IMG/VR virus record: IMGVR_UViG_2563366960_000002
Origin: a virus
Taxonomy: Duplodnaviria; Heunggongvirae; Uroviricota; Caudoviricetes
DNA length: 64,000 nucleotides
Direction: 5' to 3' (one strand)
In this document: piece by piece, positions 1,903 through 45,690 of the stretch
Position numbering within the stretch: position 1 is the stretch's first letter
Layout: every line of letters begins with the position of its first letter
The notes under the pieces: generated by a model
Database searches by the model: none
Told to the model about the DNA's origin: nothing
Seen by the model: only the letters and a program-made list of their open reading frames with translations
Made by a program: the position numbers and the translations under genes

Positions 1903-2460
1903 ATGAAGGGAAAAACAGCCGCAGGAGGCGGTGCAATTTGCGCTATCGCGGTGATGATTACCATCGTGATGGGTAATGGCAATGTGCGAACCAACCAGGC
2001 GGGGCTTGAGCTTATCGGAAACGCTGAAGGTTGCCGACGTGATCCATACATGTGCCCGGCGGGTGTATGGACTGACGGGATTGGTAATACACACGGGGTA
2101 ACGCCAGGCGTGCGAAAAACCGACCAACAAATCGCCGCTGATTGGGAAAAGAATATCCTGATCGCTGAACGCTGTATTAACCAGCACTTCCGGGGCAAAG
2201 ACATGCCCGATAATGCCTTCAGCGCAATGACTAGCGCGGCATTCAATATGGGATGCAATAGTTTACGGACCTACTACAGCAAAGCGCGAGGCATGCGAGT
2301 CGAAACGTCCATCCACAAGTGGGCGCAGAAAGGGGAATGGGTGAATATGTGTAACCATCTCCCTGATTTTGTGAACAGTAACGGCGTCCCCCTGCCCGGG
2401 TTAAAGATTCGCCGTGAAAAAGAACGCCAGCTTTGCCTGACGGGGCTGGTCAATGAATAA
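1903..2460 (+). CDS. lyz: SAR endolysin (lysozyme)
   Basis: 185 aa from ATG 1903 (GAGG Shine-Dalgarno); N-terminal signal-arrest-release segment GGGAICAIAVMITIVMG followed by lysozyme-like domain; length and sequence as P1 Lyz. Confidence 0.9.
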   Translation: MKGKTAAGGGAICAIAVMITIVMGNGNVRTNQAGLELIGNAEGCRRDPYMCPAGVWTDGIGNTHGVTPGVRKTDQQIAADWEKNILIAERCINQHFRGKDMPDNAFSAMTSAAFNMGCNSLRTYYSKARGMRVETSIHKWAQKGEWVNMCNHLPDFVNSNGVPLPGLKIRREKERQLCLTGLVNE

Positions 2461-2707
2461 ACTCCGGCAGCTCCGCCGACTTTCGACAATGAAGTTATCG
2501 CTGGCGGCGATAGTTTTCGACTCGATTTTCATGGCGGTATATGTGCTCAATGAGACGTGGCCACTGGAACCGCTATTATATGCCGGGCTTCGGCTGTGCC
2601 TGACATTTTTGAGCATGGCTGCGAGATTGATGCAGCAGAAAGAAACCGCTTCAGATTGTCCACGCCGCGCGGTGCGCAAATATATGGCACGCAGGCGAAG
2701 GCGATAA
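2453..2707 (+). CDS. Small two-TM membrane protein translationally coupled to lyz
   Basis: ATG overlaps the lyz stop (ATGAATAA); two hydrophobic segments and an Arg-rich C-terminus; lysis-accessory role is inferred from position only. Confidence 0.4.
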   Translation: MNKLRQLRRLSTMKLSLAAIVFDSIFMAVYVLNETWPLEPLLYAGLRLCLTFLSMAARLMQQKETASDCPRRAVRKYMARRRRR

Positions 2708-2718
2708 TAGTTAACGAG

Positions 2719-2746
2719 AACCCCGGCAGCTGCCGGGGTTATTTTT
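2719..2746. terminator. Bidirectional intrinsic terminator
   Basis: Perfect palindrome CCCCGGCAG/CTGCCGGGG followed by TTATTTTT; sits between the convergent lyz unit and pro. Confidence 0.6.
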
Positions 2747-2751
2747 GGTGG

Positions 2752-5482
<2,731 letters not shown>

Positions 5483-5515
5483 TTAATTAGAATAATTCGC
5501 ATCGTGTTTTAACGG

Positions 5516-5537
5516 AATTTAACACTAGTCACTTGTT
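5516..5537 (-). promoter_or_regulatory. Candidate late promoter for prt-pro
   Basis: On the minus strand AACAAGTGACT-agtgt-TAAATT, in the prt/darB divergent intergenic region. Confidence 0.4.
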
Positions 5538-5548
5538 AAGGATTACCA

Positions 5549-8500
5549 ATGAACAAGCTATCTATGGGGGTGTTTCGCTGTTCAAGTGTCAGCGAAATAT
5601 TGAAATACATTAGGGCAATAACATCTCACCGAGCGCCGATTAAATACGGCGTGGAAAAGGTGGAAGGCAAAAGCTATGACCGACTGCGCCGGGAGGCGAA
5701 TCAGAAGGCGATAGATTTGCTTAATTCGCTGGTGGACGGCGCGACACTGACAGATGAACAGCGCCAGATCCTGGCTGGGTACACCGGTGAAGGCGGCATT
5801 GGCGGGTCCGTCTCCGAATATTACACACCAAAGCCGATCGCTGAAGGTGTCTGGGAGATCATGAAGCTCTACGGCGCGGACGTAGGTAACACTCTGGAAC
5901 CATCGGCGGGAACCGGCGTTTTTAATGAGACAAAACCGGTTGGTACGGTGATGACCGCGACTGAGATCAGCAGTGTTTCCGGTCGTATAAACCAGCTGTT
6001 GCACCCGGAAGACAGCGTACAGATTTCTCCGTTCGAACAACTGGCTGTAAGCACGCCTAACGATTCATTCGACCATGTTGTGGGTAACGTTCCGTTCGGT
6101 GGTCGTGATAACACACGCAACATCGATAAGCCTTACGCAGAAGAAACGGACATGGGTTCTTACTTCATGCTCCGCATGCTGGACAAGATAAAGCCAGGCG
6201 GATTCATGTGCGTGATTGTGCCGCCGTCCATTGTTTCAGGTTCAAACATGAAGCGGTTACGCCTGCGCCTATCACGGAAAGCTGAATTTCTTGGTGCCCA
6301 CCGCTTGCCTACCGGTACTTTTGACGCTAACGGGACCAGTACGGTCGTAGATGTGGTGCTGATGCGCAAACATCCGGCAGAGATGGCTGAGAAAATCCCC
6401 CTGGTGGATGAAAGCACTCTCGAATCGGCAAATGTGCTTTGGTCAACGTTTATTTCTGGCAAGTGGTTTGAAAAGGATGGCCGCCGGTTTGTTCATGGCA
6501 CCCAGGAAAAGGGCTTCCAGGGGCGTATTGAGGTTCGTGCCGACGGTCAGATTGATAACCAGGCTCTTAAAGCGAAGCTGATTCATCGTTTCGAAAGCCG
6601 TATCGACTGGTCTTTGCTCGATATGGCTGAACCGTCACCGACCGCAGACGTTGTTGGTGAAGGGGAAATGCGCCTGATTAATGGCGTATGGCAAAAATAT
6701 GCTGGTGGTCGCTGGATTGAAGCTGATGCAGGGAAGGAACTTAAGATCGATGCTGCCAGTTATGGCGCGGATAGCTGGGAGGCTCTTCAGCGTAACCTGA
6801 CTACAACAGAAGGCCGTCTCGGCATGACATTTACCCAGATGGCAAATGTCCGCGATAAGTACACCACATCAATCAGCGACGATATGGTGCAGCTGGTGGA
6901 CTGGATTAACAGCCAGCCTGAAAAATACCGTGAACGCTTGTATCGCGGGGCGATGATTGGCCGGATGTTAATTGAATATCAGGACATGAAGGCCGCCGGG
7001 CATAGTGCTGAACAAATCGAACAGCAGCGCCTTTCTCTGGTATCCCGTTTGCAGGCAGAGATTGACCGTTTTGGTAACCCCGGTCGCGGTCCGATAGCGA
7101 AATTATCGGGGAGCGGTGCGCGCGCCTGGTTTGCTTTCCGTGGTGCAATTAAGCTGGATGGCACTATTTCTGACGAGCTGACAGGAAAACTGGTTACGCA
7201 TGATTCCAGCGCCAGTTATGACTCCACCAGCTATCAGGACACCCTGCGTTATCTCTACAGTGATCTCACTCGCGATCCAATCCAGCTCGATGATTTCCGC
7301 CTTGCGTTTACCGGCGAACTGCCAGCCAGTGATGACGAGTTGCTTAATTTATTGGCCAGCACCCCTGGCATTGCGGTTTCACCGTATGGCGGGATTGTTC
7401 CGTTCGCCCGCGCCACCAGCGGCGACATTAACGAGATAGTGGCACCAAAACAGGAATTCCTTGCCACACTCCCCGACGGTCCAGTAAAGAACAACGTCCT
7501 TAATCAGCTGGCAGCGATCGAAGAGAAGCGCATCAAGACGCCAGCAGAGAATATCCGCTTTAAGCTCAATAGCCGTTGGTTCGACCGTTCCGTCATTCTG
7601 GAATTTTTGCAGGAAAACGGCTATCCGGATCTGCGCTATGTGCAGTCAGTGCAGCTGGAAGGCGACGAAATGGTTTCTGACACCTATCACGGTGGTGATG
7701 GTCTGTTCGTCGGGCACCGATACGGTGTCGTCCAGCGCAAGGATAAAGAAACAGGCGAGATCCGCTATGAGTGGGACCGTAAATCAGGTGAAAACGCGAC
7801 CGGGTTCCCGGCACAGCTGGAAAAGTATCTCAATGGTGCGCGTATCGGTGGCAAAGATAGCGCGACGGCGAACGGCTACCGCGAGCAGATGGCACTGCTT
7901 GAGGACCAGTTCAATAAGTGGATCAAGACGCACGATCGCTACGATGAGTTGGTTGCCAAATACAACGATGTGTTCAATAGCAATATCCCGTATGAACACT
8001 CTGGCGATCCGCTTGGGTTGAAGGGATTAAGCGGTAAGCGCCAGCCATTTGATTACCAGAATAGCGAGGTGCGCCGACTGTCCGAAGATGGGCGCGGCAT
8101 CCTGGGCTTCGGCACCGGGCTGGGTAAAACGACGACCGCGCTGGCGCTTGAGGCGTTCAACTATGAGAACGGTCGCTCCACCCGTACTGCTTATGTAGTG
8201 CCTAAAGCAGTGCTGGAAAACTGGTATTACGAAGCAAAAGAGTTCCTGAGTGAAGAGGCATTCAGTAACTACCTGTTCGTCGGTCTTGATGTGCTGATGG
8301 ATGGCGATCAGATTCGCCAGGTGCCGGTGCTCGATGAGAACGGTAAACCTGTTCTTGGTACTGATGGCACTCCAGTTATGCGCGATGCTCTTAAGCTGGC
8401 AGATGAAGCCACTATCACGGCGCGGATGAACGCGATCCCGCACTCAAATTACCGTGCAGTCGTGTTTACCAAAGAACAATACGCCCGCATTCCGCTACGT

Positions 8501-11500
8501 GATGACACCGTAGATGAGCATGCACAGGATATGCTTTATGACTTCGTTGCCGCCGGGCGCGTAGCCAGCGCAATGGATTCCGATTCCCATCGCAAAGAGG
8601 CGGCGCGTCGCCGGGTATTGTCGGAGTATTCAGATACCGGTACCGAAAAAGCAGAGAAGTATCCGTACTTTGAGGATATGGGCTTCGACAGCGTGATCGC
8701 TGACGAAGGCCACAACTACCGCAATAGCTATAAAAATGGTCGCGAAGCGTCACAGCTGGCCTATCTGCCCACCAGCGCGGTAGCGCAATCGGCGCGAGAT
8801 ATGGCAATCAAAAACGCGTACCTGATGAAAAAGAATGGCGGGCGCGGACCGGTTCTCCTGACTGCAACGCCAGTCGTTAACACCCCGATCGATGCATACA
8901 ACATGCTTTCTCATGTTCTGCCGAAGGAATACTGGCAGAAGATGGGGATCTACGGTCCTGATGACTTCGTTAAATTCTTCGGCAAGACCAGGCTGGAAAC
9001 GGTACAGAAAATCAGCGGTGAAGTTGAAGAAAAAATGGCGCTGGTGGGCTTTGAAAACCTTGATGCGCTGCGCGGTATATTCCATCGCTGGGTAACGCTT
9101 AAAACGGCGGAAGACGTTAAGGATACCGTGGAGATCCCGGAGCTGGACGAACACCAGCAGGATGCTCCACTTACTGAAGAACAACTGGCGGCGTATGAAG
9201 AATTGCGTCAGCAGGCGGAAGCGGCGGCCAAAGCCAACAATGGCGTAACGACCTCGGTCAATGAAGACGGCGTGATTGAGCACGAGAAAGCCCGTCCGAT
9301 CTTCTCAATAATCAGGGATATGGACCGCGTATGTACTGACATGGACCTGTACTATCGCCGGATCACCTATCGTTTCCTGCCGGAGTATGCCGATGCGGTG
9401 CAGCAGCTGGCGGACAGTTTGCCTAAACAAGCCACCAGCGAAGACGACGACAGTGATGATTCAATCACGCAGCAATCGCAATACTCCCTGATAGATAAGG
9501 GCGAGTTTATTCAGTTGCAGGTTCCGGAAGCGTTTGAGCAGGAAGTGAATAAGCGCCTGGCCAGGTTTGGCATTGACGAACAGACCGTAACTCACCCCTT
9601 TACGCCAAAATACGCGAAGCTGATCGCCACGCTGAAGGAGTTTTTCCCGGAAGGTAAGCAAATCATCTTCACCGATGAAAAAACGCAGCACCAGAAGCTC
9701 AAGCGCATTATCTGCAATGCTCTTAACCTTGAACCTTCAAAGGTGGGGATCCTGAATGCTCAGACGGTTGCCGAGGCAGGTAAAACCGGTAAGAAACTGA
9801 AAGCGGTTAAACCGCCGAAAGAGCTACCGGATGAACCAACAGATGCACAGATAGCGAAATACAACGAGCAAATGGCTCTGTATGACGCCTATATCGCGCA
9901 GCAAAATGAAATGTCGCTGGGCGGGCTGGAAAAGATTGCTGCCGACTTCCAGGAGGGCCGGACTCCGATCATCATCTGCAACAAAAAGGCAGAGGTGGGT
10001 ATCAACCTGCATCGAGGAACGACTGACATCCATCATCTGACGTTGCCATGGACTCCAGCCAGTATTGCGCAACGAAACGGTCGCGGTGCCCGAGTTGGCT
10101 CCAACCGTGCAAGCGTTCGCGTTCACTACTACTGCGGCAAGGGTTCTTTCGATGAATACCGACTGAAGACGCTGAAGCGTAAAGCAGGCTGGATCTCCGA
10201 TATCCTCCGTTCAGATAAGTCAGAAATGGAGAACGCCGACGCCAACGATATGATCGAAATGCAGATGTATACCGCTAAGGATGATGGCGAACGTCTGGCA
10301 ATGATGCAGGTTCAAATGGATAAGGCGAAAGCCGCGCAACGCGCTCGCCAGAAAGAACAGGCTACTATCGACCTTCAGAACTACATCAAGGCGCAGCACG
10401 CAGCTGGTGAGGATGTGGAAGCTCTTACCGCTGAATTGGAGCGAAGCAAAGCGGAACTTGAAAAGACCACCGCCGACGTCGCCAAATTCAAACAGGCGGC
10501 AATGGCCAAGGCAGCGGATAACGCAGACTGGAAGGCACGCTGGGGGAGTGTCCATAACGCTGACCGTATGTTGTTAGCTCAGTATCGTGCATCGTTGAAA
10601 AGTGCCATTCAGCGCAAGGCTAATATCTCTCAAGCCATCTCCCGCTATGAGAAATTATTGAACCGTACCCAGAAGGCTGCGACGGATATCAAACGCCTGC
10701 GCCCGCTGGTGGAGGATGCAATAAATAAAGGCATTCTGGATGTTGATCCTGATCTGGTTAACCATGCGAATGAGTTCCTTGTTATCGACGATCGCTCATG
10801 GCGTGTAGGCCAATACTACGATTGTGCCGGTGATATCGTTCGCATTAAGTCGCTGGACTTCGACAGCCAACGCGCAGACGTGGAGATCATCTTTACCTTC
10901 AAAGGTACCAAATCGGGTAACTGGGATGTGAAGACGCTGGATAAACAGGTGGATGTAACTCCCGATGAAGATGCTGTTATGCAGAAAATCAGTGGTGGCG
11001 TCTCCATCGCCGGGATTAACGGCATCATTTCCTGTGACGATTTCTACCGTTTCCAGCAGCGCGGCATGATCAAAATCACTGACTCATACGGCGTTCAGAC
11101 TACAGAGTCAGGCTATAGCATTGATTTTGTTGGTACCTATACGGACCCACTGAAGCATGCGGTTTACCCGGATCGCCGTGACGGCGCGCTGAAGTCGTCA
11201 ATTGCAAAATGGGTGCTTGGTATGATGTCGGAAGGGAATAACCGCCAGGTCCGTTTGGCAGAAGTATTCCTGACTGAACTGTTTGGCTCCAATTATGGCG
11301 ATGTAATCGCGTCATACGGAGATACGCTATCCCCTGAAGCAATTCAGGAGAAAATAGCGGATGCGATCGCCAGAATGCCGGAGAAAACAAGCCAGGGGGC
11401 TACTCGTAACGGGGATTCTGAACTTGAGGTCACCAATGCCATTTTCGGTACCCATGAGTTCCGGGCGTCAGATTATGAGATCACCACAGCACAGTTTGGC

Positions 11501-12316
11501 ACCATTGGCATTTACAGCAATAAAGACGAGATCAAGCAGGCAATGGACGCTGCAAGCGCGCGTATTGCAGCAGAACGGAAAGCCAATCTGAATCATGCAG
11601 TCGCCGCGCTGACTCAATCGTGGGTAACAGCAATCAGGGAGGCCGCCACCACAGGGAAAATCACACCGGCAATTGCGGATGTCGTAAACGACGGCTCTAA
11701 ATTTATGGATGCCTATCAAATGGATGCGGTGCAGTTGCCATCAGCCTATGGCCAACTCAGCTATCGCATGACCTACAACCTGGTATCAATGTTTTCCGAC
11801 CTTGCCATCCTTGGGCTGGTGGACCTTAACGAGGTTACGCCGGAATTGCTCAGCATTCGCAAGAACCATGTGGAGATATTGCACAGAATTAACACGGTAC
11901 TTTCCGGGCGCACCGATGAAGAGAAACAGGCAGACGCTGATCGGATAAACCTGGCCCTTGGCAACATCACGGAGGAAGAAATTGCCGCCAGAAACGAGAA
12001 ACAAGAAGAGTTATCATCAATACAGGGTGATGCCACCAGCATAGCTCAGTCTCTTGGTCTGAATTATCGCGTATCCACCGCCGACATGAAGATGATGTAC
12101 GCACCAAAATTCGCCGCTGGCGAGGTATTTGGGCTTCAGGAAGCCTCCGGCATGAAAGGGGTTCTTTTCCGTGCGAAAGACGCAATCAAGGCGAAATTCG
12201 GCGCTCGCTGGTTGCCAGCGAAGGCGAAGAACAGCGACTTCCCAGGTAACTGGTGGATTATCGAGACAAAACACAACGTGGCGGACGTTCTGGCCGTCAT
12301 CCAACAATACGCATAA
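5549..12316 (+). CDS. darB: DarB-like giant methyltransferase-helicase (defence against restriction)
   Basis: 2255 aa; N-terminal adenine-methyltransferase-like motif DHVVGNVPFG; SF2 helicase motifs GFGTGLGKTT, DEGHNY, QRNGRGARVG; size and architecture of P1 DarB; AAGGA Shine-Dalgarno. Confidence 0.9.
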   Translation: MNKLSMGVFRCSSVSEILKYIRAITSHRAPIKYGVEKVEGKSYDRLRREANQKAIDLLNSLVDGATLTDEQRQILAGYTGEGGIGGSVSEYYTPKPIAEGVWEIMKLYGADVGNTLEPSAGTGVFNETKPVGTVMTATEISSVSGRINQLLHPEDSVQISPFEQLAVSTPNDSFDHVVGNVPFGGRDNTRNIDKPYAEETDMGSYFMLRMLDKIKPGGFMCVIVPPSIVSGSNMKRLRLRLSRKAEFLGAHRLPTGTFDANGTSTVVDVVLMRKHPAEMAEKIPLVDESTLESANVLWSTFISGKWFEKDGRRFVHGTQEKGFQGRIEVRADGQIDNQALKAKLIHRFESRIDWSLLDMAEPSPTADVVGEGEMRLINGVWQKYAGGRWIEADAGKELKIDAASYGADSWEALQRNLTTTEGRLGMTFTQMANVRDKYTTSISDDMVQLVDWINSQPEKYRERLYRGAMIGRMLIEYQDMKAAGHSAEQIEQQRLSLVSRLQAEIDRFGNPGRGPIAKLSGSGARAWFAFRGAIKLDGTISDELTGKLVTHDSSASYDSTSYQDTLRYLYSDLTRDPIQLDDFRLAFTGELPASDDELLNLLASTPGIAVSPYGGIVPFARATSGDINEIVAPKQEFLATLPDGPVKNNVLNQLAAIEEKRIKTPAENIRFKLNSRWFDRSVILEFLQENGYPDLRYVQSVQLEGDEMVSDTYHGGDGLFVGHRYGVVQRKDKETGEIRYEWDRKSGENATGFPAQLEKYLNGARIGGKDSATANGYREQMALLEDQFNKWIKTHDRYDELVAKYNDVFNSNIPYEHSGDPLGLKGLSGKRQPFDYQNSEVRRLSEDGRGILGFGTGLGKTTTALALEAFNYENGRSTRTAYVVPKAVLENWYYEAKEFLSEEAFSNYLFVGLDVLMDGDQIRQVPVLDENGKPVLGTDGTPVMRDALKLADEATITARMNAIPHSNYRAVVFTKEQYARIPLRDDTVDEHAQDMLYDFVAAGRVASAMDSDSHRKEAARRRVLSEYSDTGTEKAEKYPYFEDMGFDSVIADEGHNYRNSYKNGREASQLAYLPTSAVAQSARDMAIKNAYLMKKNGGRGPVLLTATPVVNTPIDAYNMLSHVLPKEYWQKMGIYGPDDFVKFFGKTRLETVQKISGEVEEKMALVGFENLDALRGIFHRWVTLKTAEDVKDTVEIPELDEHQQDAPLTEEQLAAYEELRQQAEAAAKANNGVTTSVNEDGVIEHEKARPIFSIIRDMDRVCTDMDLYYRRITYRFLPEYADAVQQLADSLPKQATSEDDDSDDSITQQSQYSLIDKGEFIQLQVPEAFEQEVNKRLARFGIDEQTVTHPFTPKYAKLIATLKEFFPEGKQIIFTDEKTQHQKLKRIICNALNLEPSKVGILNAQTVAEAGKTGKKLKAVKPPKELPDEPTDAQIAKYNEQMALYDAYIAQQNEMSLGGLEKIAADFQEGRTPIIICNKKAEVGINLHRGTTDIHHLTLPWTPASIAQRNGRGARVGSNRASVRVHYYCGKGSFDEYRLKTLKRKAGWISDILRSDKSEMENADANDMIEMQMYTAKDDGERLAMMQVQMDKAKAAQRARQKEQATIDLQNYIKAQHAAGEDVEALTAELERSKAELEKTTADVAKFKQAAMAKAADNADWKARWGSVHNADRMLLAQYRASLKSAIQRKANISQAISRYEKLLNRTQKAATDIKRLRPLVEDAINKGILDVDPDLVNHANEFLVIDDRSWRVGQYYDCAGDIVRIKSLDFDSQRADVEIIFTFKGTKSGNWDVKTLDKQVDVTPDEDAVMQKISGGVSIAGINGIISCDDFYRFQQRGMIKITDSYGVQTTESGYSIDFVGTYTDPLKHAVYPDRRDGALKSSIAKWVLGMMSEGNNRQVRLAEVFLTELFGSNYGDVIASYGDTLSPEAIQEKIADAIARMPEKTSQGATRNGDSELEVTNAIFGTHEFRASDYEITTAQFGTIGIYSNKDEIKQAMDAASARIAAERKANLNHAVAALTQSWVTAIREAATTGKITPAIADVVNDGSKFMDAYQMDAVQLPSAYGQLSYRMTYNLVSMFSDLAILGLVDLNEVTPELLSIRKNHVEILHRINTVLSGRTDEEKQADADRINLALGNITEEEIAARNEKQEELSSIQGDATSIAQSLGLNYRVSTADMKMMYAPKFAAGEVFGLQEASGMKGVLFRAKDAIKAKFGARWLPAKAKNSDFPGNWWIIETKHNVADVLAVIQQYA

Positions 12317-12349
12317 CAGGAGCGCCCGGTTCGCCGGGCGTCGCATAAT

Positions 12350-12790
12350 ATGGCCACACTATCTGATACAATAAAACCGAATAAAACATATCTTGAGGCG
12401 GTACTGCGTACGGCGTTGTTAGGAAAGACAGAAGACGAATACGTTGATTTCTTCCTGTCAGGGCTACGCGGGCGATTACTGAAAAATCCCCGCCTGTACC
12501 GCAGCTATGGTCCATACTGGCCGGAAATTAAAAAATTATTACTGGAGCGCGGTTATGGTAATTTCGGTCGTCTCGTTGACCGTGACGTTCGCAAAATTTA
12601 CCGTTATGACCGCCCGGCGCTAACACTCATAGCCGCGACGCTCTACAGCCAGGAGCGTTTTGATAATGGTCAGATATACTCAGCCTGGCATTTACTGCCA
12701 GTGCCTGAAGAAGTTGACGACCAGGACTATGAGTTTGAGTCTTACGATTTGGAAGTTGAAGCCTTGGCACAGGCTGGAGAGAAAACTTGA
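12350..12790 (+). CDS. ulx: Ulx-like protein
   Basis: 146 aa directly downstream of darB and overlapping the start of lxc; named by size and synteny. Confidence 0.6.
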   Translation: MATLSDTIKPNKTYLEAVLRTALLGKTEDEYVDFFLSGLRGRLLKNPRLYRSYGPYWPEIKKLLLERGYGNFGRLVDRDVRKIYRYDRPALTLIAATLYSQERFDNGQIYSAWHLLPVPEEVDDQDYEFESYDLEVEALAQAGEKT

Positions 12791-13035
12791 AAAAGCGATA
12801 CTACACAGTAAAGCATGGGACGCTACGAGCATTACAAGAGTTTGCTGACAAGCATAACGTTGAGGTGCGCAGGGAAGGGGGAAGTAAAGCTCTGCGCATG
12901 TACCGTCCGGACGGGAAATGGCGTACGGTCGTCGATTTCAAAACTAACAGCGTTCCCCAGGGCGTCCGCGACCGGGCATTCGAAGAATGGGAGCAAATCA
13001 TCATAGATAATGCATTGCTCCTGAATGCAGATTGA
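12787..13035 (+). CDS. lxc: Lxc/Bof-like C1 co-repressor
   Basis: 82 codons with TTG start, as recalled for P1 bof/lxc; position after ulx. Confidence 0.65.
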   Translation: MKKRYYTVKHGTLRALQEFADKHNVEVRREGGSKALRMYRPDGKWRTVVDFKTNSVPQGVRDRAFEEWEQIIIDNALLLNAD

Positions 13036-13036
13036 C

Positions 13037-13065
13037 AATTTTGCCCGGAATTACCGGGCAAAATT
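13037..13065. terminator. Perfect palindrome between convergent lxc and the RSH gene (putative bidirectional terminator)
   Basis: AATTTTGCCCGG-aatta-CCGGGCAAAATT, 12-bp arms; no clean U-tract so terminator function is uncertain. Confidence 0.4.
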
Positions 13066-13071
13066 AAGCAA

Positions 13072-14199
13072 CTATCCTTCGCTACGAAGATGCTTATCTA
13101 AGAATTTTGTAAACTGGTTTGTTGAGCCAAAATAGTTGGGGTAGGCTTTTTTTAGTGACTTAATGTTATCTGTAGCAACGAGAACAGATATCAACACATT
13201 AGGATCGGAATCGTCTTTATTTAAGGCCTCAAGAGCTTCATCTGCTTCTTTTGTTTTAAATGCGCGAACAGATACAAGGAACATTTTTTTGTTTTTTGTA
13301 TGGGGCTTGTTTTCTGCATTTCTCATTGTGACTAAGTAATGCCCCTTATGATTTTTTGGCAATTTCTTAATCAGATCCGCATCAGAAGTTAGATTTAAGG
13401 CGAGGGTGTATGTGCTTAGTTTCCTCCGTACAGATAAAGCCTGCTCCAGCGCTTTAAGCTCGCCTTCATACTGAGCTACAACTAGTTCATCAAGAATGCA
13501 GGCTTTTTCGTCGTGCGCCACAAGACATCCTGCTAGATAGAAAAATCTTCTCCATTCCGGATGCCCTTCACTTGAAGTTTTCAGCTTGATACCTTCAAGG
13601 GTATCAATTATTTCAAGGCTAGTAGCCCAAGCATGTTGCAATTGAGTTCTTAACTGTATTTCAATTTTTGTTTTTCGCCATGGGTATTGCTCCTCCTTCT
13701 GATCAAAGCAACTGTATGCAAGGTGGATCCCACTATAGCCGCTATTTTTGGGAGTAAGATAATCATACTCTTTAACAATTCTATGAACAGATTTGCTTTT
13801 TAAAAGACGTTCCCTTAGCTGTTTCAACTGATCTAAGTTTCTGACTATGGCTCTACACCCGCCAATGTCCTGCATCCGTGTTAATTTAATTGCATTGCTA
13901 GTTCTGCCGCCATCAAGACTAGGACGCTCAAGTTTATCTATTATGGTAGAAAGTCGCTTAAGTCTTCTTGCAACGAGAATCTTTTTGTCTTTAGCAACCT
14001 TATCTGCCGCTCTAGCCAAATGGTTTTTCATGAGCATTAATGGATAAAGATGTAGCTCACGAAAATTCTGGATCATTTCAATCGCTTTTTGCCTTTCTCC
14101 ATCGCTGCATCCATGCCTTATCAATTGAGCTGCCCTGTCTATTTGAGATTTAGAATAATTTAGCTTGCATTTTTGGCTTTGATATACTTCATTCCCCAT
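13072..14199 (-). CDS. RelA/SpoT-homologue (RSH) nucleotidyltransferase-domain protein, candidate fused toxSAS toxin-antitoxin (CapRel-like) defence protein
   Basis: 375 aa; synthetase-type motifs GRTSNAIKLTRMQDIGGCRAIV (res 98-119), GYSGIH (154-159, Tyr155), EIQLRTQLQHAWA (180-192); about 170-aa C-terminal extension; about 35% GC versus about 50% flanks; occupies the P1 res/mod position. Confidence 0.8.
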   Translation of the reverse strand: MGNEVYQSQKCKLNYSKSQIDRAAQLIRHGCSDGERQKAIEMIQNFRELHLYPLMLMKNHLARAADKVAKDKKILVARRLKRLSTIIDKLERPSLDGGRTSNAIKLTRMQDIGGCRAIVRNLDQLKQLRERLLKSKSVHRIVKEYDYLTPKNSGYSGIHLAYSCFDQKEEQYPWRKTKIEIQLRTQLQHAWATSLEIIDTLEGIKLKTSSEGHPEWRRFFYLAGCLVAHDEKACILDELVVAQYEGELKALEQALSVRRKLSTYTLALNLTSDADLIKKLPKNHKGHYLVTMRNAENKPHTKNKKMFLVSVRAFKTKEADEALEALNKDDSDPNVLISVLVATDNIKSLKKAYPNYFGSTNQFTKFLDKHLRSEG

Positions 14200-14300
14200 T
14201 ACTACTACCTATGTTTTGGTTTAGGAATTTTCTAACATGTAATAACAAATAGAATGGGAAATCAATGGGCTATGAGCAGTAATGCAGGGTATCTTTATAA

Positions 14301-14942
14301 TTAAAGATATCTCCCCTTACCAGTCAATATACCTTGTGGTACATGCTTTTGTGCGAGTGTTTGGGTGCCGCGAATTATGTTAATCAGAGGGCTTAGTAAC
14401 GATGGTTCCTGGCTTGCCTCAACTTCTCCAGCCATTGCCCTGATGTAGTCGGCGCTGGCAACGTTGTTGTATTCCGCCGCAAAGCAACATAGTAACGTCA
14501 GAACATGCTCTGTCGTTATTTCGCTCCAGTTGATGTTGAAAAATTCATCGCCTTTTTTATCGTGTTCGGAATCGAAGATGCTTTGGTGGAGGATGTATTT
14601 GCCGGATTCCTTGCGCGGTAACTTGATCGCTTTCTGGCGTTCCAGCTCCTTGTAAATCTGCATTGCTTCAATCAGTACCGGCCTGCCGTTCATGAAGGGA
14701 TCGCGCAACCTTACACGCTGGCCAACTCGACCAGTAATAAAGCTGTTTTCCTCTTCCACCAGCACGATAAAACCTTTTTCCTCTTTCTCACGCAATTCGC
14801 GCAGCAACTGGAGTTCCATATCGCGGCGGCGTTCAGGGTAGCTGGTCCGCTCAGCCATTATCAGCTCGTTGTTGATCCATGCAGCAGTCATTGACGCCGG
14901 TTTGCCGACGCTCATCGAAACAACGCATATTTTCTTATCCAT
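14301..14942 (-). CDS. mat: Mat-like protein
   Basis: 213 aa from ATG 14942 (AGGGG Shine-Dalgarno; track start 14969 is GTG); located between ref and the hotspot as in P1. Confidence 0.55.
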   Translation of the reverse strand: MDKKICVVSMSVGKPASMTAAWINNELIMAERTSYPERRRDMELQLLRELREKEEKGFIVLVEEENSFITGRVGQRVRLRDPFMNGRPVLIEAMQIYKELERQKAIKLPRKESGKYILHQSIFDSEHDKKGDEFFNINWSEITTEHVLTLLCCFAAEYNNVASADYIRAMAGEVEASQEPSLLSPLINIIRGTQTLAQKHVPQGILTGKGRYL

Positions 14943-15130
14943 AGCGCCCCTACAAAAAAGAAAAGCCACCAGCGGCGGCTTAGCAATACAACAAAAGGTA
15001 GCGCCCGGTACTCAGACTGTGCCGTCCATGGAATATTTGAAAAGGGATCCATCCGTACCGGGCATGTGATGATTCTGACTGAAGTCACTTGTCAGTTGTC
15101 AATTATTTCAGATTAAAAATAATATATTTA

Positions 15131-15691
15131 TTAGTGCATAATGTTTGCCATCTCATAGGCGTCAGCCAGCAACTCCATCTCTGACTTGTTCAGCAAGGTG
15201 AATTCTTTCTTGCCTCCAACCACACCATCGGCATGAACAGGGACCAGCCAGGGATATTTTTCTCTTACTTCAGCCGGTGCTGCATGCTGGTGGTGCCATC
15301 TACAAAGGGGCAATTGCTTTTTGTGACAACCCGGCGCGGTACGACCGGAGATATGGTGCAAAGATACCTCTTCAGATATTACTCCATGCATGTAGCAGGC
15401 AATGCAGGGGAGAGCGCCAAGAGCACTGGCGATGCTCCGTTCCTCCGCTGTCGGTGTTCGCCCCTTCAAGCCACGAGATTTTATCTTTACCGCACTTTTC
15501 CGCGTTTTGCTGGCTGGTGGGCGCTCTTTCTGTTTAGCGATACGGCGGTCGATAGAATCCCGCATTTTCTGATATTGCGATTCTCGCCAGGCGGGGTCAG
15601 CCAACTTTTCCCGTTGCCGAGCGATCGCTCGTTCTCTGGCTGCCTTCTGCCACTCGCGGCGCTGTTCAAGTTTTTGTTCGATTGTTTTCAT
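15131..15691 (-). CDS. ref: Ref, RecA-dependent HNH endonuclease
   Basis: 186 aa from ATG 15691; basic N-terminal region and HNH-like core (CHKKQLPLCRWHHQHAAPAEVREKYPWL); matches P1 Ref length and sequence. Confidence 0.85.
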   Translation of the reverse strand: MKTIEQKLEQRREWQKAARERAIARQREKLADPAWRESQYQKMRDSIDRRIAKQKERPPASKTRKSAVKIKSRGLKGRTPTAEERSIASALGALPCIACYMHGVISEEVSLHHISGRTAPGCHKKQLPLCRWHHQHAAPAEVREKYPWLVPVHADGVVGGKKEFTLLNKSEMELLADAYEMANIMH

Positions 15692-15696
15692 ATGGC

Positions 15697-15722
15697 AAAA
15701 AAAAGGCGGCCTAATGGCCGCC
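15697..15722 (-). terminator. Intrinsic-terminator-like hairpin plus U8 in the ref leader
   Basis: Minus strand: GGCGGCC-atta-GGCCGCC followed by TTTTTTTT, ending about 6 nt before the ref ATG and downstream of the Op2 promoter. Confidence 0.5.
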
Positions 15723-15779
15723 AATGATGTCAAGGAGTGAAGTAATGGCAACGTCTTCGTAGTTGACAAAAACTGCGGC

Positions 15780-15806
15780 TCAATTATAGCAATCAATTAG
15801 AGCAAT
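15780..15806 (-). promoter_or_regulatory. Overlapping C1 operators with embedded -10 (ref promoter, Op2-like)
   Basis: Reverse complement ATTGCTCTAATTGATTGCTATAATTG: one full operator overlapping a second operator-like copy that contains TATAAT. Confidence 0.7.
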
Positions 15807-15936
15807 GGTAGATATTTTGTTTATCGCGAATCACATTTTTTCACTTCAGTACCTGTGTGCTATACTCCTTCTTGATTGATTGGATGCGGAATACAAACCC
15901 GCTCTTTTGTGCAGCCTGGCTCCTTGCCAGGCTTTT

Positions 15937-16248
15937 TTATTTCATCATGGAAGCTGTTAACGCTTTGGATCTTGCTGAACTGATTGAAAGGGCATTGTTT
16001 ACCTTACCCAGGAGTTCGCCAAATTCCGCCATCACTCTAGTAAGCCCGCGCCGCGCTTCCTCCTCCGTTGCATTCATCACAAAATGTTCAGCGCTCCGCA
16101 TGCTTTTAACGGGGAACGCAACAGATATCGAGTCGATATCAGGCATCCTATCGCTCAATTTTACGGTGACAATGACAGATGGTGACTGAATTTGAGAGCT
16201 TACAGACAGCACCACATATTTTCCGTCTATTTTGAAATCCTTCCGCAT
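15937..16248 (-). CDS. C1-controlled small protein between cre and ref (cra-like)
   Basis: 103 aa; ATG 16248 with GGTGA Shine-Dalgarno; operator immediately upstream; no domain recognised. Confidence 0.5.
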   Translation of the reverse strand: MRKDFKIDGKYVVLSVSSQIQSPSVIVTVKLSDRMPDIDSISVAFPVKSMRSAEHFVMNATEEEARRGLTRVMAEFGELLGKVNNALSISSARSKALTASMMK

Positions 16249-16264
16249 GCGTCACCATAAATAT

Positions 16265-16281
16265 CAAATAATTAGAGCAAT
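16265..16281 (-). promoter_or_regulatory. C1 operator
   Basis: Reverse complement ATTGCTCTAATTATTTG; lies between the cre stop and the downstream small ORF. Confidence 0.7.
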
Positions 16282-16298
16282 CAAGCGCAAATGAACGG

Positions 16299-17330
16299 CT
16301 AATCGCCATCTTCCAGCAGGCGTACCATTGCCCCCGTTTCACTATCCAGGTTACGGATATAGTTCATGACAATATTCACGTTGGTCCAGCCACCAGCTTG
16401 CATGATCTCCGGTATTGAAACTCCGGCGCGGGCCATATCTCGCGCGGCTCCGACACGGGCACTGTGTCCAGACCAGGCCAGGTATCTCTGACCAGAGTCA
16501 TCCTTAGCGCCGTAAATCAATCGATGAGTTGCTTCAAAAATCCCTTCCAGGGCGCGAGTTGATAGCTGGCTGGTGGCAGATGGCGCGGCAACACCATTTT
16601 TTCTGACACGGCAAAACAAGTAGTTATTCGGATCATCAGCCACACCAGAGACAGAAATCCATCGCTCGACCAGTTTAGTTACCCCCAGGCTAAGTGCCTT
16701 CTCTACACCTGCGGTGCTAACCAGCGTTTTCGTTCTGCCAATATGGATTAACATTCTCCCACCGTCAGTACGTGAGATATCTTTAACCCTGATCCTGGCA
16801 ATTTCGGCTATACGTAACAGGGTGTTATAAGCAATCCCCAGAAATGCCAGATTACGTATATCCTGGCAGCGATCGCTATTTTCCATGAGTGAACGAACCT
16901 GGTCGAAATCAGTGCGTTCGAACGCCAGTGCCTGTTTTGCACGTTCACCGGCATCAACGTTTTCTTTTCGGATCCGTCGCATGACCAGTGAAACAGCATT
17001 ACTGTCACTTGGTCGTGGCAGCCCGGACCGACGATGAAGCATGTTTAGCTGGCCCAAATGTTGCTGGATAGTTTTTACTGCCAGACCGCGCGCCTGAAGA
17101 TATAGAAGATAATCGCGAACATCTTCAGGTTCTGCGGGAAACCATTTCCGGTTATTCAACTTGCACCATGCCGCCCACGACCGGCAAACGGACAGAAGCA
17201 TTTTCCAGGTATGCTCAGAAAACGCCTGGCGATCCCTGAACATGTCCATCAGATTCTTGCGAACCTCATCACTCGTTGCATCGACCGGTAATGCAGGCAA
17301 ATTTTGGTGTACGGTCAGTAAATTGGACAT
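16299..17330 (-). CDS. cre: Cre site-specific tyrosine recombinase
   Basis: 343 aa; sequence recognised as P1 Cre (MSNLLTVHQNLPALPVDATSDEVRKNLMDMFRDRQAFSEHTWK...); loxP lies 420 bp upstream. Confidence 0.98.
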   Translation of the reverse strand: MSNLLTVHQNLPALPVDATSDEVRKNLMDMFRDRQAFSEHTWKMLLSVCRSWAAWCKLNNRKWFPAEPEDVRDYLLYLQARGLAVKTIQQHLGQLNMLHRRSGLPRPSDSNAVSLVMRRIRKENVDAGERAKQALAFERTDFDQVRSLMENSDRCQDIRNLAFLGIAYNTLLRIAEIARIRVKDISRTDGGRMLIHIGRTKTLVSTAGVEKALSLGVTKLVERWISVSGVADDPNNYLFCRVRKNGVAAPSATSQLSTRALEGIFEATHRLIYGAKDDSGQRYLAWSGHSARVGAARDMARAGVSIPEIMQAGGWTNVNIVMNYIRNLDSETGAMVRLLEDGD

Positions 17331-17337
17331 TTAACAC

Positions 17338-17559
17338 TCAGATAATGGTTTTAAGTAAAGTGTACAGGATCGGCTCTGCCTTTACCTGTTTATGGTTCTC
17401 GTCATAGAAACGCCAGCGACCGCGCGTGCGTTCTATTTTCTCTTCACCGCGAGATAATGACAGTTGGTAACTATCACGCTCAAACCCTTTTGCCCGCCAG
17501 TAACCACGGTTTTTCTCAAGCTCAAGATGAGTGGACACTTTAGCAGCTGAATATCCCAT
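17338..17559 (-). CDS. 73-aa ORF between loxP and cre
   Basis: ATG with strong GAGGTG Shine-Dalgarno; stop 8 nt before the cre ATG; basic protein, no domain recognised. Confidence 0.45.
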   Translation of the reverse strand: MGYSAAKVSTHLELEKNRGYWRAKGFERDSYQLSLSRGEEKIERTRGRWRFYDENHKQVKAEPILYTLLKTII

Positions 17560-17656
17560 TTTTCACCTCTGATTGATTGGTGGTGCTAAGTGCGCTACGC
17601 GAAATCTGTAGGACTAACACCGCCAACATTTCGCAGATTTTACGTAGCGCAACCTT

Positions 17657-17729
17657 GATCAAATGATCAAGTGATCACTATTTGACCTGATAAGGTATTG
17701 AACTGTATGGATTTACAGGTAAATTGATC
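17657..17729. promoter_or_regulatory. GATC (Dam) cluster in the cre promoter region
   Basis: Four GATC sites, three within 20 bp (GATCAAATGATCAAGTGATCAC); P1 cre promoters are known to be Dam-sensitive. Confidence 0.4.
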
Positions 17730-17748
17730 ATGTTCAATAACCCCTAAG

Positions 17749-17782
17749 ATAACTTCGTATAATGTATGCTATACGAAGTTAT
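17749..17782. other. loxP: loxP recombination site
   Basis: Exact ATAACTTCGTATA-ATGTATGC-TATACGAAGTTAT. Confidence 0.98.
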
Positions 17783-42512: not shown

Positions 42513-45659
<3,147 letters not shown>

Positions 45660-45660
45660 G

Positions 45661-45690
45661 AAAAGCCCGGCGATCGGGCTTTTCTTTTAT
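45661..45690. terminator. Intrinsic terminator between convergent operons
   Basis: AAGCCCG-gcgat-CGGGCTT followed by TTCTTTT. Confidence 0.55.

What the first reader, a model, noticed from the sequence alone, without database searches (positions are those of the whole stretch)
13036..14300. Cargo-exchange locus between lxc and mat with palindromic boundary
Flanking genes (darB-ulx-lxc and mat-ref-cre) are syntenic with P1, but the intervening segment is only 1.26 kb with one gene. One edge is a perfect 12-bp-arm palindrome (13037-13065) and the other an AT-rich 100-bp spacer. This looks like a defence-island insertion point where different P1-like elements carry different cargo.
Basis: partly seen in the sequence, partly recalled or inferred. 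Interest (0 to 1): 0.55.

Follow-up and report, generated by a model that had tools for sequence, protein, structure and literature searches.

The report
P1 accessory slot carrying CapRel defence
This is the known variable slot of P1-like phage-plasmids, where phage P1 keeps its restriction enzyme genes; here it holds a close relative of the characterised anti-phage toxin-antitoxin gene CapRel, so the locus is real and meaningful but largely already described.

Summary
Homology to P1 breaks exactly at window 13034-14300. That stretch has lower GC, one 375-aa gene on the minus strand, a perfect 12-bp-arm palindrome at 13037-13065 and a 101-bp AT-rich spacer.

The gene is a CapRel fused toxin-antitoxin. 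It is 74% identical over its full length to CapRel-SJ46 (PDB 7ZTB), and its catalytic and autoinhibitory residues are conserved. P1 has res-mod (type III R-M) at the same place.

Among 79 other P1-like loci the lxc-mat interval falls into 10 cargo classes plus two empty forms. About three quarters of occupied slots hold known or candidate defence genes.

- **Left boundary:** sharp, at the lxc stop codon.
- **Right boundary:** fades about 200 nt into mat, and the mat 3' allele travels with the cargo. This points to homologous recombination, not site-specific insertion.
- **Palindrome:** a hairpin at the shared 3' end of lxc and capRel. Its GCCCGG/CCGGGC core is also present in empty sites, so it is backbone, not a cassette end.

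However, the hot-spot is published as RD-1 / region 1, CapRel-SJ46 comes from this same slot, and the exact protein is already in NCBI. Interest is modest.

The parts
12350..12790 (+). ulx, a conserved left-flank gene
   Evidence: The ORF is. It lies inside the 98.2% block shared with P1 and is annotated Ulx in P1, SJ46 and RCS47.
12787..13035 (+). lxc (bof), the C1 modulator gene. Its stop codon is the sharp left edge of the variable slot.
   Evidence: Nucleotide diversity within lxc is 0.02-0.04. P1 homology ends at 13033.
13037..13065 (.). Perfect 12-bp-arm hairpin (AATTTTGCCCGG aatta CCGGGCAAAATT). It fills most of the 36-nt gap between the convergent stop codons of lxc and capRel. Probably a 3'-end hairpin (terminator or stabiliser) for both transcripts. 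No T-run follows it on either strand.
   Evidence: establish the palindrome and its rarity. The terminator scan does not call it. The same GCCCGG..CCGGGC core sits directly after lxc in both empty forms and in the GNAT and YaaC classes. There is no Rfam match.
13072..14199 (-). capRel: a fused toxSAS toxin-antitoxin. The N-terminal part is a RelA/SpoT-type pyrophosphokinase. The C-terminal part is the pseudo-zinc-finger sensor and antitoxin domain.
   Evidence: - Pfam RelA_SpoT, 6e-13, aa 79-193.
- PADLOC PDC-S33, 7.6e-86, covering nearly the whole protein and profile.
- PDB 7ZTB, E 1.8e-185, aa 1-371; 74% identity to the SJ46 protein.
- R79, R116, Y155, L280 and the YxxY motif (Y353, Y356) are conserved.
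- The exact protein is in NCBI as an E. coli RelA/SpoT domain protein.
14237..14265 (-). Promoter-like element for capRel inside the AT-rich spacer (14200-14300): TTGATT (14265-14260), 17 nt, TTACAT (14242-14237).
   Evidence: A conserved block, CCATTGATTT ... ATTAnATGT, survives in three capRel alleles whose upstream regions are otherwise diverged. CapRel-SJ46 is active from its native promoter on a low-copy plasmid (PMC9712102). The strict promoter scan does not call it, so this is an inference.
14301..14500 (-). The 3' end of mat (about 200 nt), which diverges along with the cargo and forms the fuzzy right edge of the exchanged module.
   Evidence: Nucleotide diversity is 0.29 in the first 100 nt from the mat stop, 0.13 in the next 100, then 0.02-0.04. 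There are 18 alleles of the 3' 120 nt and they are almost class-specific. The stretch 300-600 nt from the mat stop is a single allele in 72 of 78 loci.
14301..14969 (-). mat (maturation control), the conserved right-flank gene, convergent with lxc.
   Evidence: It lies in the 95.2% block shared with P1.

Best explanation
**The locus.** Window 13034-14300 is the accessory slot of P1-like phage-plasmids, between the 3' ends of the convergent genes lxc and mat. This is the place where P1 carries res-mod. Here it holds a capRel cassette.

**How the slot works (inferred).** An insertion between two convergent 3' ends breaks no operon, so foreign low-GC genes are tolerated there. Cargo is swapped between co-resident or co-infecting P1-like elements by homologous recombination. 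One crossover falls in the nearly invariant lxc side, sometimes within the shared hairpin core. The other falls inside mat, so the last 100-200 nt of mat travel with the cargo.

**How the gene works (inferred by homology to CapRel-SJ46).** The N-terminal pyrophosphokinase domain is held inactive by the C-terminal pseudo-zinc-finger domain of the same polypeptide. When an unrelated phage infects the lysogen, a newly made phage protein binds that domain. For SJ46 this is the major capsid protein. Binding relieves autoinhibition. The enzyme then pyrophosphorylates tRNA 3' ends, translation stops, and the infection aborts.

**Specificity (inferred).** Identity to SJ46 is lowest in the sensor region (aa 276-325), so the trigger range probably differs from SJ46.

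**Flanking elements (inferred).** The palindrome is the common 3'-end hairpin of the lxc and capRel transcripts. The AT-rich spacer carries capRel's own promoter.
For: **Shown**
- The synteny break is exact.
- P1 has res-mod at this place.
- 80 intervals fall into 10 cargo classes plus two empty forms; all cargo has GC 0.32-0.43.
- Cargo domains were identified by PADLOC and Pfam.
- Lxc is 100% identical everywhere. The diversity gradient runs 0.29, 0.13, then 0.02-0.04 into mat, against 0.02-0.04 in lxc.
- mat 3' alleles are almost class-specific, while the more 5' stretch of mat (300-600 nt from its stop) is one allele in 72 of 78 loci.
- The window's nearest flanks belong to empty, SIR2 and YaaC elements, not to other CapRel elements.
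- L050 combines the CapRel-type lxc allele and hairpin with an RCS47-type mat end. That marks it as a recombinant with its junction at CCGGGCA.
- The protein shows full-length homology to CapRel-SJ46 (7ZTB): E 1.8e-185, 74% identity, with R79, R116, Y155, L280 and YxxY conserved.
- Identity to SJ46 is lowest at aa 276-325 (26 of 49). This matches the paper's statement that the pseudo-ZFD is the variable, specificity-determining part (PMC9712102).
- About 10% of 703 matching PLSDB plasmids carry the cassette.

**From the literature**
- The CapRel-SJ46 mechanism: tRNA pyrophosphorylation triggered by a capsid protein (PMC9712102).
Against: - No experiment exists on this allele. Its defence activity, trigger and target are inferred from a 74%-identical protein.
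- No pair of elements had both flanks within 0.3% divergence yet carried different cargo, so no very recent swap was caught.
- The hairpin has no U-tract on either strand and the terminator scan does not call it. Its role as a terminator is therefore uncertain.
- The promoter-like element fails the strict consensus scan.
- The IMG/VR sample is the best 80 of 101 hits and probably contains related isolates, so class frequencies are rough.
Confidence: 0.8

Rival explanations
1. The palindrome is a recombination or insertion signal, and cassettes are captured site-specifically. Examples would be a folded-hairpin site like an integron attC, or an IS200/IS605-type target.
For: - The GCCCGG/CCGGGC stem recurs directly after lxc in five cargo or empty classes, with different loops.
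- The junction in the L050 recombinant lies exactly at the 3' arm, CCGGGCA.
- Such a palindrome is very unlikely by chance.
Against: - There is no recombinase or transposase gene in or next to the slot.
- Six other classes have unrelated hairpins at the same position, and the res-mod class has none evident.
- No matching repeat lies at the right end.
- The right boundary decays gradually into mat, and mat alleles are linked to cargo. That is the signature of homologous rather than site-specific recombination.
Confidence: 0.06
2. The gene serves mainly as a plasmid-stabilising (addiction) toxin-antitoxin module for the plasmid prophage, not as phage defence.
For: - It is a toxin-antitoxin fusion on a low-copy plasmid prophage.
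- P1's res-mod in the same slot is counted among the plasmid addiction systems in PMC6906374.
Against: - Toxin and antitoxin are one polypeptide. Differential decay after plasmid loss, which is the basis of post-segregational killing, cannot operate.
- The homologue from the same slot of SJ46 was shown to be an anti-phage system (PMC9712102).
- P1-like elements already carry phd-doc, listed among the conserved P1 genes in PMC9603915.
Confidence: 0.07
3. The gene is an ordinary small alarmone synthetase that makes (p)ppGpp or (p)ppApp to adjust host physiology in the lysogen.
For: - It carries a Pfam RelA_SpoT domain.
- It has weak matches to RelQ, RelP and YjbM structures (E 2e-8 to 2e-4).
- Databases name it 'GTP pyrophosphokinase'.
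Against: - Identity to housekeeping SAS enzymes is confined to about 115 aa at E around 1e-8. The match to CapRel-SJ46 is full length at E 1e-185 and includes the pseudo-ZFD and the YxxY motif.
- CapRel-SJ46 acts on tRNA (PMC9712102).
Confidence: 0.04

Closest known systems
CapRel-SJ46, the fused toxSAS toxin-antitoxin of Salmonella phage SJ46 (Zhang et al. 2022, PMC9712102; PDB 7ZTB)
   Same: - It sits in the same slot (lxc-mat) of a P1-like element, in the same orientation.
- Length is 373 against 375 aa, with 74% identity over the full length.
- R79, R116, Y155, L280, the SJ46-L307 equivalent and YxxY are all conserved.
- A similar promoter block lies upstream.
   Different: - The cassette is only 71% identical at nucleotide level.
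- Identity is lowest in the pseudo-ZFD (aa 276-325, 26 of 49), so the trigger range may differ.
- The hairpin after lxc and the mat 3' allele are both different.
- This allele has not been tested.
The common E. coli P1-like plasmid CapRel allele (for example pTZ20_1P NZ_MN510447, pLH85-a-A NZ_CP100487), called a 'putative phosphokinase' in RD-1 by Venturini 2019
   Same: - The hairpin is identical and the cassette architecture is the same.
- 93% nucleotide identity and 95% protein identity, with 19 substitutions.
   Different: - The window's allele differs at 19 residues and has its own mat 3' allele.
- No complete E. coli genome or PLSDB plasmid matches the cassette above about 94% over most of its length. 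The exact protein is nonetheless in NCBI.
P1 res-mod (EcoPI type III R-M) locus = hot-spot RD-1 (Venturini 2019, PMC6906374) / variable region 1 (PMC9603915)
   Same: - It occupies the same position, P1 3469-9749, between mat and lxc.
- It is low in GC.
- It is a defence function carried by a plasmid prophage.
   Different: The cargo is a 6.3-kb two-gene R-M system (plus IS5) co-directional with lxc, against a 1.27-kb single abortive-infection gene convergent with lxc. There is no evident hairpin after lxc in P1.
[quoted passage not shown] 2022, cited in PMC10879196; PMC13586616)
   Same: Both are fixed positions between conserved genes of a temperate element, where unrelated, mostly defence, low-GC cargo alternates between relatives.
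   Different: The element family is different (a plasmid prophage). Here the slot lies between convergent 3' ends, and one flank gene (mat) shares its 3' end with the cargo module.

Membership tests
CapRel fused toxSAS toxin-antitoxin | N-terminal RelA/SpoT-type (toxSYNTH) nucleotidyl or pyrophosphokinase domain | tested here: met
   Pfam PF04607, 6.1e-13, aa 79-193. Alignment to 7ZTB covers aa 1-371.
CapRel fused toxSAS toxin-antitoxin | C-terminal antitoxin/sensor (pseudo-ZFD) fused in the same polypeptide, homologous to that of CapRel-SJ46 | tested here: met
   The full-length phmmer alignment to 7ZTB runs to residue 371 of 375. The PADLOC PDC-S33 profile is covered 5-342 of 349. There is no separate antitoxin ORF in the interval.
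CapRel fused toxSAS toxin-antitoxin | ATP-coordinating R79 and R116 and G-loop Y155 (residues named in PMC9712102) | tested here: met
   All three are invariant in the 6-sequence alignment A1.
CapRel fused toxSAS toxin-antitoxin | YxxY autoinhibition motif and interface residues (L280, L307 of SJ46) | tested here: met
   Y353 and Y356, L280 and L308 (= SJ46 L307) are conserved.
CapRel fused toxSAS toxin-antitoxin | Pyrophosphorylates tRNA; activated by a phage protein; protects against phage by abortive infection | not testable with these tools
   Known only for CapRel-SJ46 (PMC9712102).
P1-like variable hot-spot RD-1 (res-mod region) | Lies between mat and lxc, at the place of P1 nt 3469-9749 | tested here: met
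   P1 homology ends at window 13033 (P1 9752) and resumes at 14301 (P1 3468). RD-1 coordinates come from PMC6906374.
P1-like variable hot-spot RD-1 (res-mod region) | Different, unrelated content in different P1-like elements; low GC | tested here: met
   10 cargo classes plus 2 empty forms among 80 intervals, with GC 0.32-0.43.
Intrinsic (Rho-independent) terminator | GC-rich stem-loop | tested here: met
   12-bp stem with a GCCCGG core; -20.5 and -24.7 kcal/mol.
Intrinsic (Rho-independent) terminator | Run of T (U) immediately 3' of the stem | tested here: not met
   The stem is followed by AAGCAAC on the + strand and GTCAATC on the - strand. The terminator scan does not report it. In contrast, the canonical terminator at 45658-45686 has a T-run.
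Site-specific cassette (integron, transposon or IS) | Adjacent recombinase or transposase and matching end repeats or target duplication | tested here: not met
   The slot holds only capRel. No inverted or direct repeat pairs the two ends. Hairpins differ between classes.

The most novel reading that the evidence does not exclude
The conserved GCCCGG/CCGGGC hairpin directly after lxc may be more than a transcript end. It could be a preferred crossover or capture point, working as a short structured micro-homology patch at which cassettes are joined to the P1 backbone. That would explain why the left boundary is base-sharp in every element while the right boundary is diffuse. A second possibility is that this CapRel allele, with its diverged pseudo-ZFD, senses a trigger other than those known for SJ46.
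Probability: 0.1. Interest if true: 0.55.

Novelty: new member of a known kind. Interest (0 to 1): 0.3.

Why it matters
The locus shows how P1-like phage-plasmids, which are common in E. coli and Salmonella and often carry resistance genes, swap anti-phage genes at one fixed position. The set of alternatives found there gives a small, ready-made list of candidate defence genes in a uniform genetic context. It includes untested single-gene candidates (DUF2971/PDC-S31, PIN/PDC-S34, SIR2/PDC-S25) and a YaaC plus deoxyribosyltransferase-like pair. The natural CapRel alleles in the slot (74-95% identical) could be used to map sensor specificity. None of this overturns current knowledge: the hot-spot and the gene family are both published.

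Tried and rejected
- **Intrinsic terminator.** The consensus scan does not call the palindrome, because no T-run follows it. I keep only the weaker description '3'-end hairpin'.
- **Known RNA family.** An Rfam scan of 12600-14500 at E up to 1 found nothing.
- **Recent cargo swap.** I looked for pairs of elements with both flanks within 0.3% divergence but different cargo. There were none in this sample.
- **Flanking direct repeats.** I considered CCGGGCA (13054-13060) and CAGGGTA (14285-14291) as a possible target duplication. The other CapRel alleles have no such repeat at their right ends, so I treat it as chance or as similarity to the empty-site sequence.
- **Exact DNA match.** The best hit in phages, PLSDB plasmids and complete E. 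coli genomes is about 93-94% over the cassette. Only the protein look-up found the exact allele.
- **Published defence-cargo catalogue of this slot.** Literature searches returned papers that describe the variable region, but none framed as a defence catalogue. Two searches failed because a term was too short.
- **First flank alignment.** It timed out and was rerun with faster MAFFT settings.

Full report
**1. What is in the sequence**

The window is a P1-like phage-plasmid. blastn against P1 (NC_005856) gives two collinear blocks: window 5000-13033 = P1 17785-9752 at 98.2%, and window 14301-17765 = P1 3468-1 at 95.2%.

On the left, on the + strand, lie:
- darB (5549-12316, 2255 aa)
- ulx (12350-12790)
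- lxc (12787-13035)

On the right, on the - strand, lie mat (14301-14969), ref, c8 and cre (16299-17330). lxc and mat are therefore convergent, and the interval lies between their stop codons.

In P1 the same place holds res, mod and an IS5, 6281 bp in total. In the window it holds one ORF, 13072-14199 (-), 375 aa. GC falls to 0.35-0.42 across most of 13000-14400 (one 200-bp window reaches 0.465), against roughly 0.48-0.56 in the flanks.

The palindrome is real. Its arms are at 13037-13048 and 13054-13065, 12 nt each and 100% complementary, with a 5-nt loop. The fold z-scores are -4.4 and -4.1. Only three perfect inverted repeats with arms of at least 12 bp exist in the 64 kb, against an expected 0.01. 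The other two are loxP (17749-17782) and a canonical terminator (45658-45686).

**2. The gene**

The protein has a Pfam RelA_SpoT domain (6e-13). It matches the PADLOC candidate-defence profile PDC-S33 along almost its whole length (7.6e-86).

Against solved structures the best match is 7ZTB (E 1.8e-185, aa 1-371). The protein from the same slot of Salmonella phage SJ46 is 74% identical. I equate 7ZTB with CapRel-SJ46 for two reasons: the CapRel-SJ46 paper mentions 7ZTB, and the 7ZTB chain aligns like the SJ46 gene product.

Zhang et al. 2022 (PMC9712102) showed the following for CapRel-SJ46:
- It is a fused toxin-antitoxin.
- Its C-terminal pseudo-zinc-finger domain autoinhibits the N-terminal toxSYNTH domain.
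- Binding of the SECphi27 major capsid protein relieves the inhibition.
- The enzyme then pyrophosphorylates tRNAs and blocks translation.
[quoted passage not shown] Identity to SJ46 is lowest in aa 276-325 (26 of 49). That is the pseudo-ZFD, the part the paper reports as least conserved and specificity-determining.

The nearest allele is the one common on E. coli P1-like plasmids: 95% protein identity, 19 substitutions, and 93% nucleotide identity across the cassette. The exact protein is already in NCBI, for example ELE49062.1, named only 'RelA/SpoT domain-containing protein'.

**3. The slot in other elements**

I fetched 80 IMG/VR loci that encode Lxc and added six reference records. In every locus that also contained mat, I extracted the sequence from the lxc stop to the mat stop. 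The 80 intervals, counting the window, cluster as follows:

| Class | Interval length | n | Content |
|---|---|---|---|
| Empty | 39 bp | 8 | RCS47 type |
| Empty | 29 bp | 1 | L050 |
| Lipoprotein-like | 581 bp | 1 | 135-aa ORF |
| GNAT | 872-912 bp | 7 | acetyltransferase |
| PIN | 1044-1054 bp | 7 | PIN_12 protein; partial PDC-S34 match |
| DUF2971 | 1190 bp | 10 | PDC-S31 |
| CapRel | 1265-1287 bp | 13 | two allele groups |
| SIR2 | 1401-1415 bp | 13 | SIR2_2 protein; PDC-S25 / ThsA-like |
| YaaC | 1698 bp | 4 | YaaC-like plus nucleoside deoxyribosyltransferase-like pair |
| EAL | 1736-1768 bp | 4 | AraC-type regulator plus EAL protein |
| Juk | 3560-3567 bp | 4 | JukA with other genes |
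| ResMod | 5082-6281 bp | 8 | type III R-M |

All cargo has GC 0.32-0.43. About 55 of the 71 occupied slots hold known or candidate defence genes. In PLSDB, 703 plasmids match the flanks and 72 carry the CapRel cassette. Among 5426 complete E. coli genomes, 83 have it, almost always on plasmids.

**4. Boundaries and mechanism of exchange**

Lxc is 100% identical at protein level in every locus. Nucleotide diversity in lxc is 0.02-0.04.

Diversity in mat is very different. It is 0.29 in the first 100 nt from the stop codon, 0.13 in the next 100, and 0.02-0.04 after that.

The 3' 120 nt of mat fall into 18 alleles that are almost class-specific. The exceptions are Juk with ResMod, and CapRel-A with some GNAT. 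The stretch 300-600 nt from the mat stop is a single allele in 72 of 78 loci, and lxc is one allele in 61 of 77. The exchanged module is therefore the cargo plus roughly the last 100-200 nt of mat.

The window's flanks are closest to those of empty, SIR2 and YaaC elements (about 1.2% divergence), not to other CapRel elements. Cargo does not follow the backbone.

No recombinase lies in or beside the slot. I infer homologous recombination in the conserved flanks. I found no pair with near-identical flanks and different cargo, so no very recent exchange is documented.

**5. The palindrome**

It fills 29 of the 36 nt between the lxc stop (13033-13035) and the capRel stop (13072-13074).

Its core, TTTTGCCCGG-loop-CCGGGCA, is also found directly after lxc in both empty forms and in the GNAT and YaaC classes, with different loops each time. 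The other classes have unrelated hairpins at the same position.

L050, the 29-bp empty site, reads CAATTTTGCCCGGAATTACCGGGCA, identical to the window. It then continues TCTT straight into an RCS47-type mat end, and its lxc allele is the CapRel-A type. L050 thus looks like a recombinant, or a cargo loss, with its junction at the 3' arm.

The hairpin is therefore part of the slot's left edge, not a cassette terminus. It most likely marks the 3' ends of the convergent lxc and capRel transcripts. It lacks a U-tract on both strands, so it fails one defining feature of an intrinsic terminator and its exact role remains an inference. There is no Rfam family match.

**6. The AT-rich spacer**

On the - strand the 101 bp upstream of capRel contain TTGATT (14265-14260), 17 nt, then TTACAT (14242-14237). 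This block is conserved in all three capRel alleles, although the rest of the spacer has diverged. It is a plausible own promoter, which fits the native-promoter activity of the SJ46 gene. The strict scan does not call it.

**7. Comparison with what is known, and novelty**

Venturini et al. 2019 (PMC6906374) defined RD-1 as P1 3469-9749 (res-mod), one of five hot-spots of variation in P1-like plasmids. They listed a 'putative phosphokinase' there in pTZ20_1P, which is H32. PMC9603915 lists res-mod as variable region 1 of eight. CapRel-SJ46 comes from this same slot of SJ46.

The hot-spot, the gene family and even the exact protein are therefore already public.
- a defence-oriented catalogue of the slot;
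- the asymmetric boundaries (sharp at lxc, graded in mat);
- the finding that the palindrome core belongs to the backbone.

I found no paper giving such a catalogue, but the library is incomplete.

**8. Verdict**

The finding is a new member (an untested allele) of a known kind, sitting in a known variable region. Interest is 0.3.

Noticed in passing
window 17749-17782: The canonical loxP site (ATAACTTCGTATAATGTATGCTATACGAAGTTAT) lies just beyond cre. It turned up as one of only three perfect inverted repeats with arms of at least 12 bp in the window.
   Followed up: yes
window 45658-45686: A perfect 12-bp-arm hairpin, AAGAAAAGCCCGGCGATCGGGCTTTTCTTTT, is followed by a T-run. It looks like a canonical intrinsic terminator and is a useful contrast to the T-run-less hairpin at 13037-13065.
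   Followed up: partly
L050 10247-10278 (IMGVR_UViG_3300045988_152416): A 29-bp 'empty' lxc-mat site keeps the CapRel-type hairpin and lxc allele but has an RCS47-type mat end. It is apparently a recombinant, or a cargo loss, with its junction at CCGGGCA.
   Followed up: partly
L018 lxc-mat interval (1698 bp; also L046, L056, L064): A two-gene cargo: a YaaC-like protein (346 aa, Pfam 1.5e-45) plus a 169-aa protein with a weak nucleoside 2-deoxyribosyltransferase-like match. Neither gives a PADLOC hit. It may be an undescribed defence pair.
   Followed up: no
L020 lxc-mat interval (1736-1768 bp class; L020, L039, L051, L068): The cargo is an AraC-type regulator plus an EAL-domain protein, which is not a recognisable defence system. 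These elements also have the most divergent mat (85% aa) and their own lxc nucleotide allele.
   Followed up: no
L002 (phage vB_EcoM-673R5, ON470615.2) 2249-3348; PLSDB hits H20, H51, H58, H68: The CapRel gene is split into two ORFs in phage 673R5, probably by a frameshift. In several plasmids the matched lxc-capRel-mat region is interrupted by an IS (ISKpn26, ISVsa5, IS3, IS1). The cassette therefore seems to be inactivated repeatedly.
   Followed up: no
window 14279-14320: An imperfect 19-nt inverted repeat (74% complementary) spans the mat stop codon. Its fold is not significantly stable (z = -1.5).
   Followed up: partly
L008 lxc-mat interval (3560 bp class): The JukA-containing cargo shares its mat 3' allele with the res-mod class. 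This suggests one replaced the other by a crossover at or inside the cargo rather than in mat.
   Followed up: no
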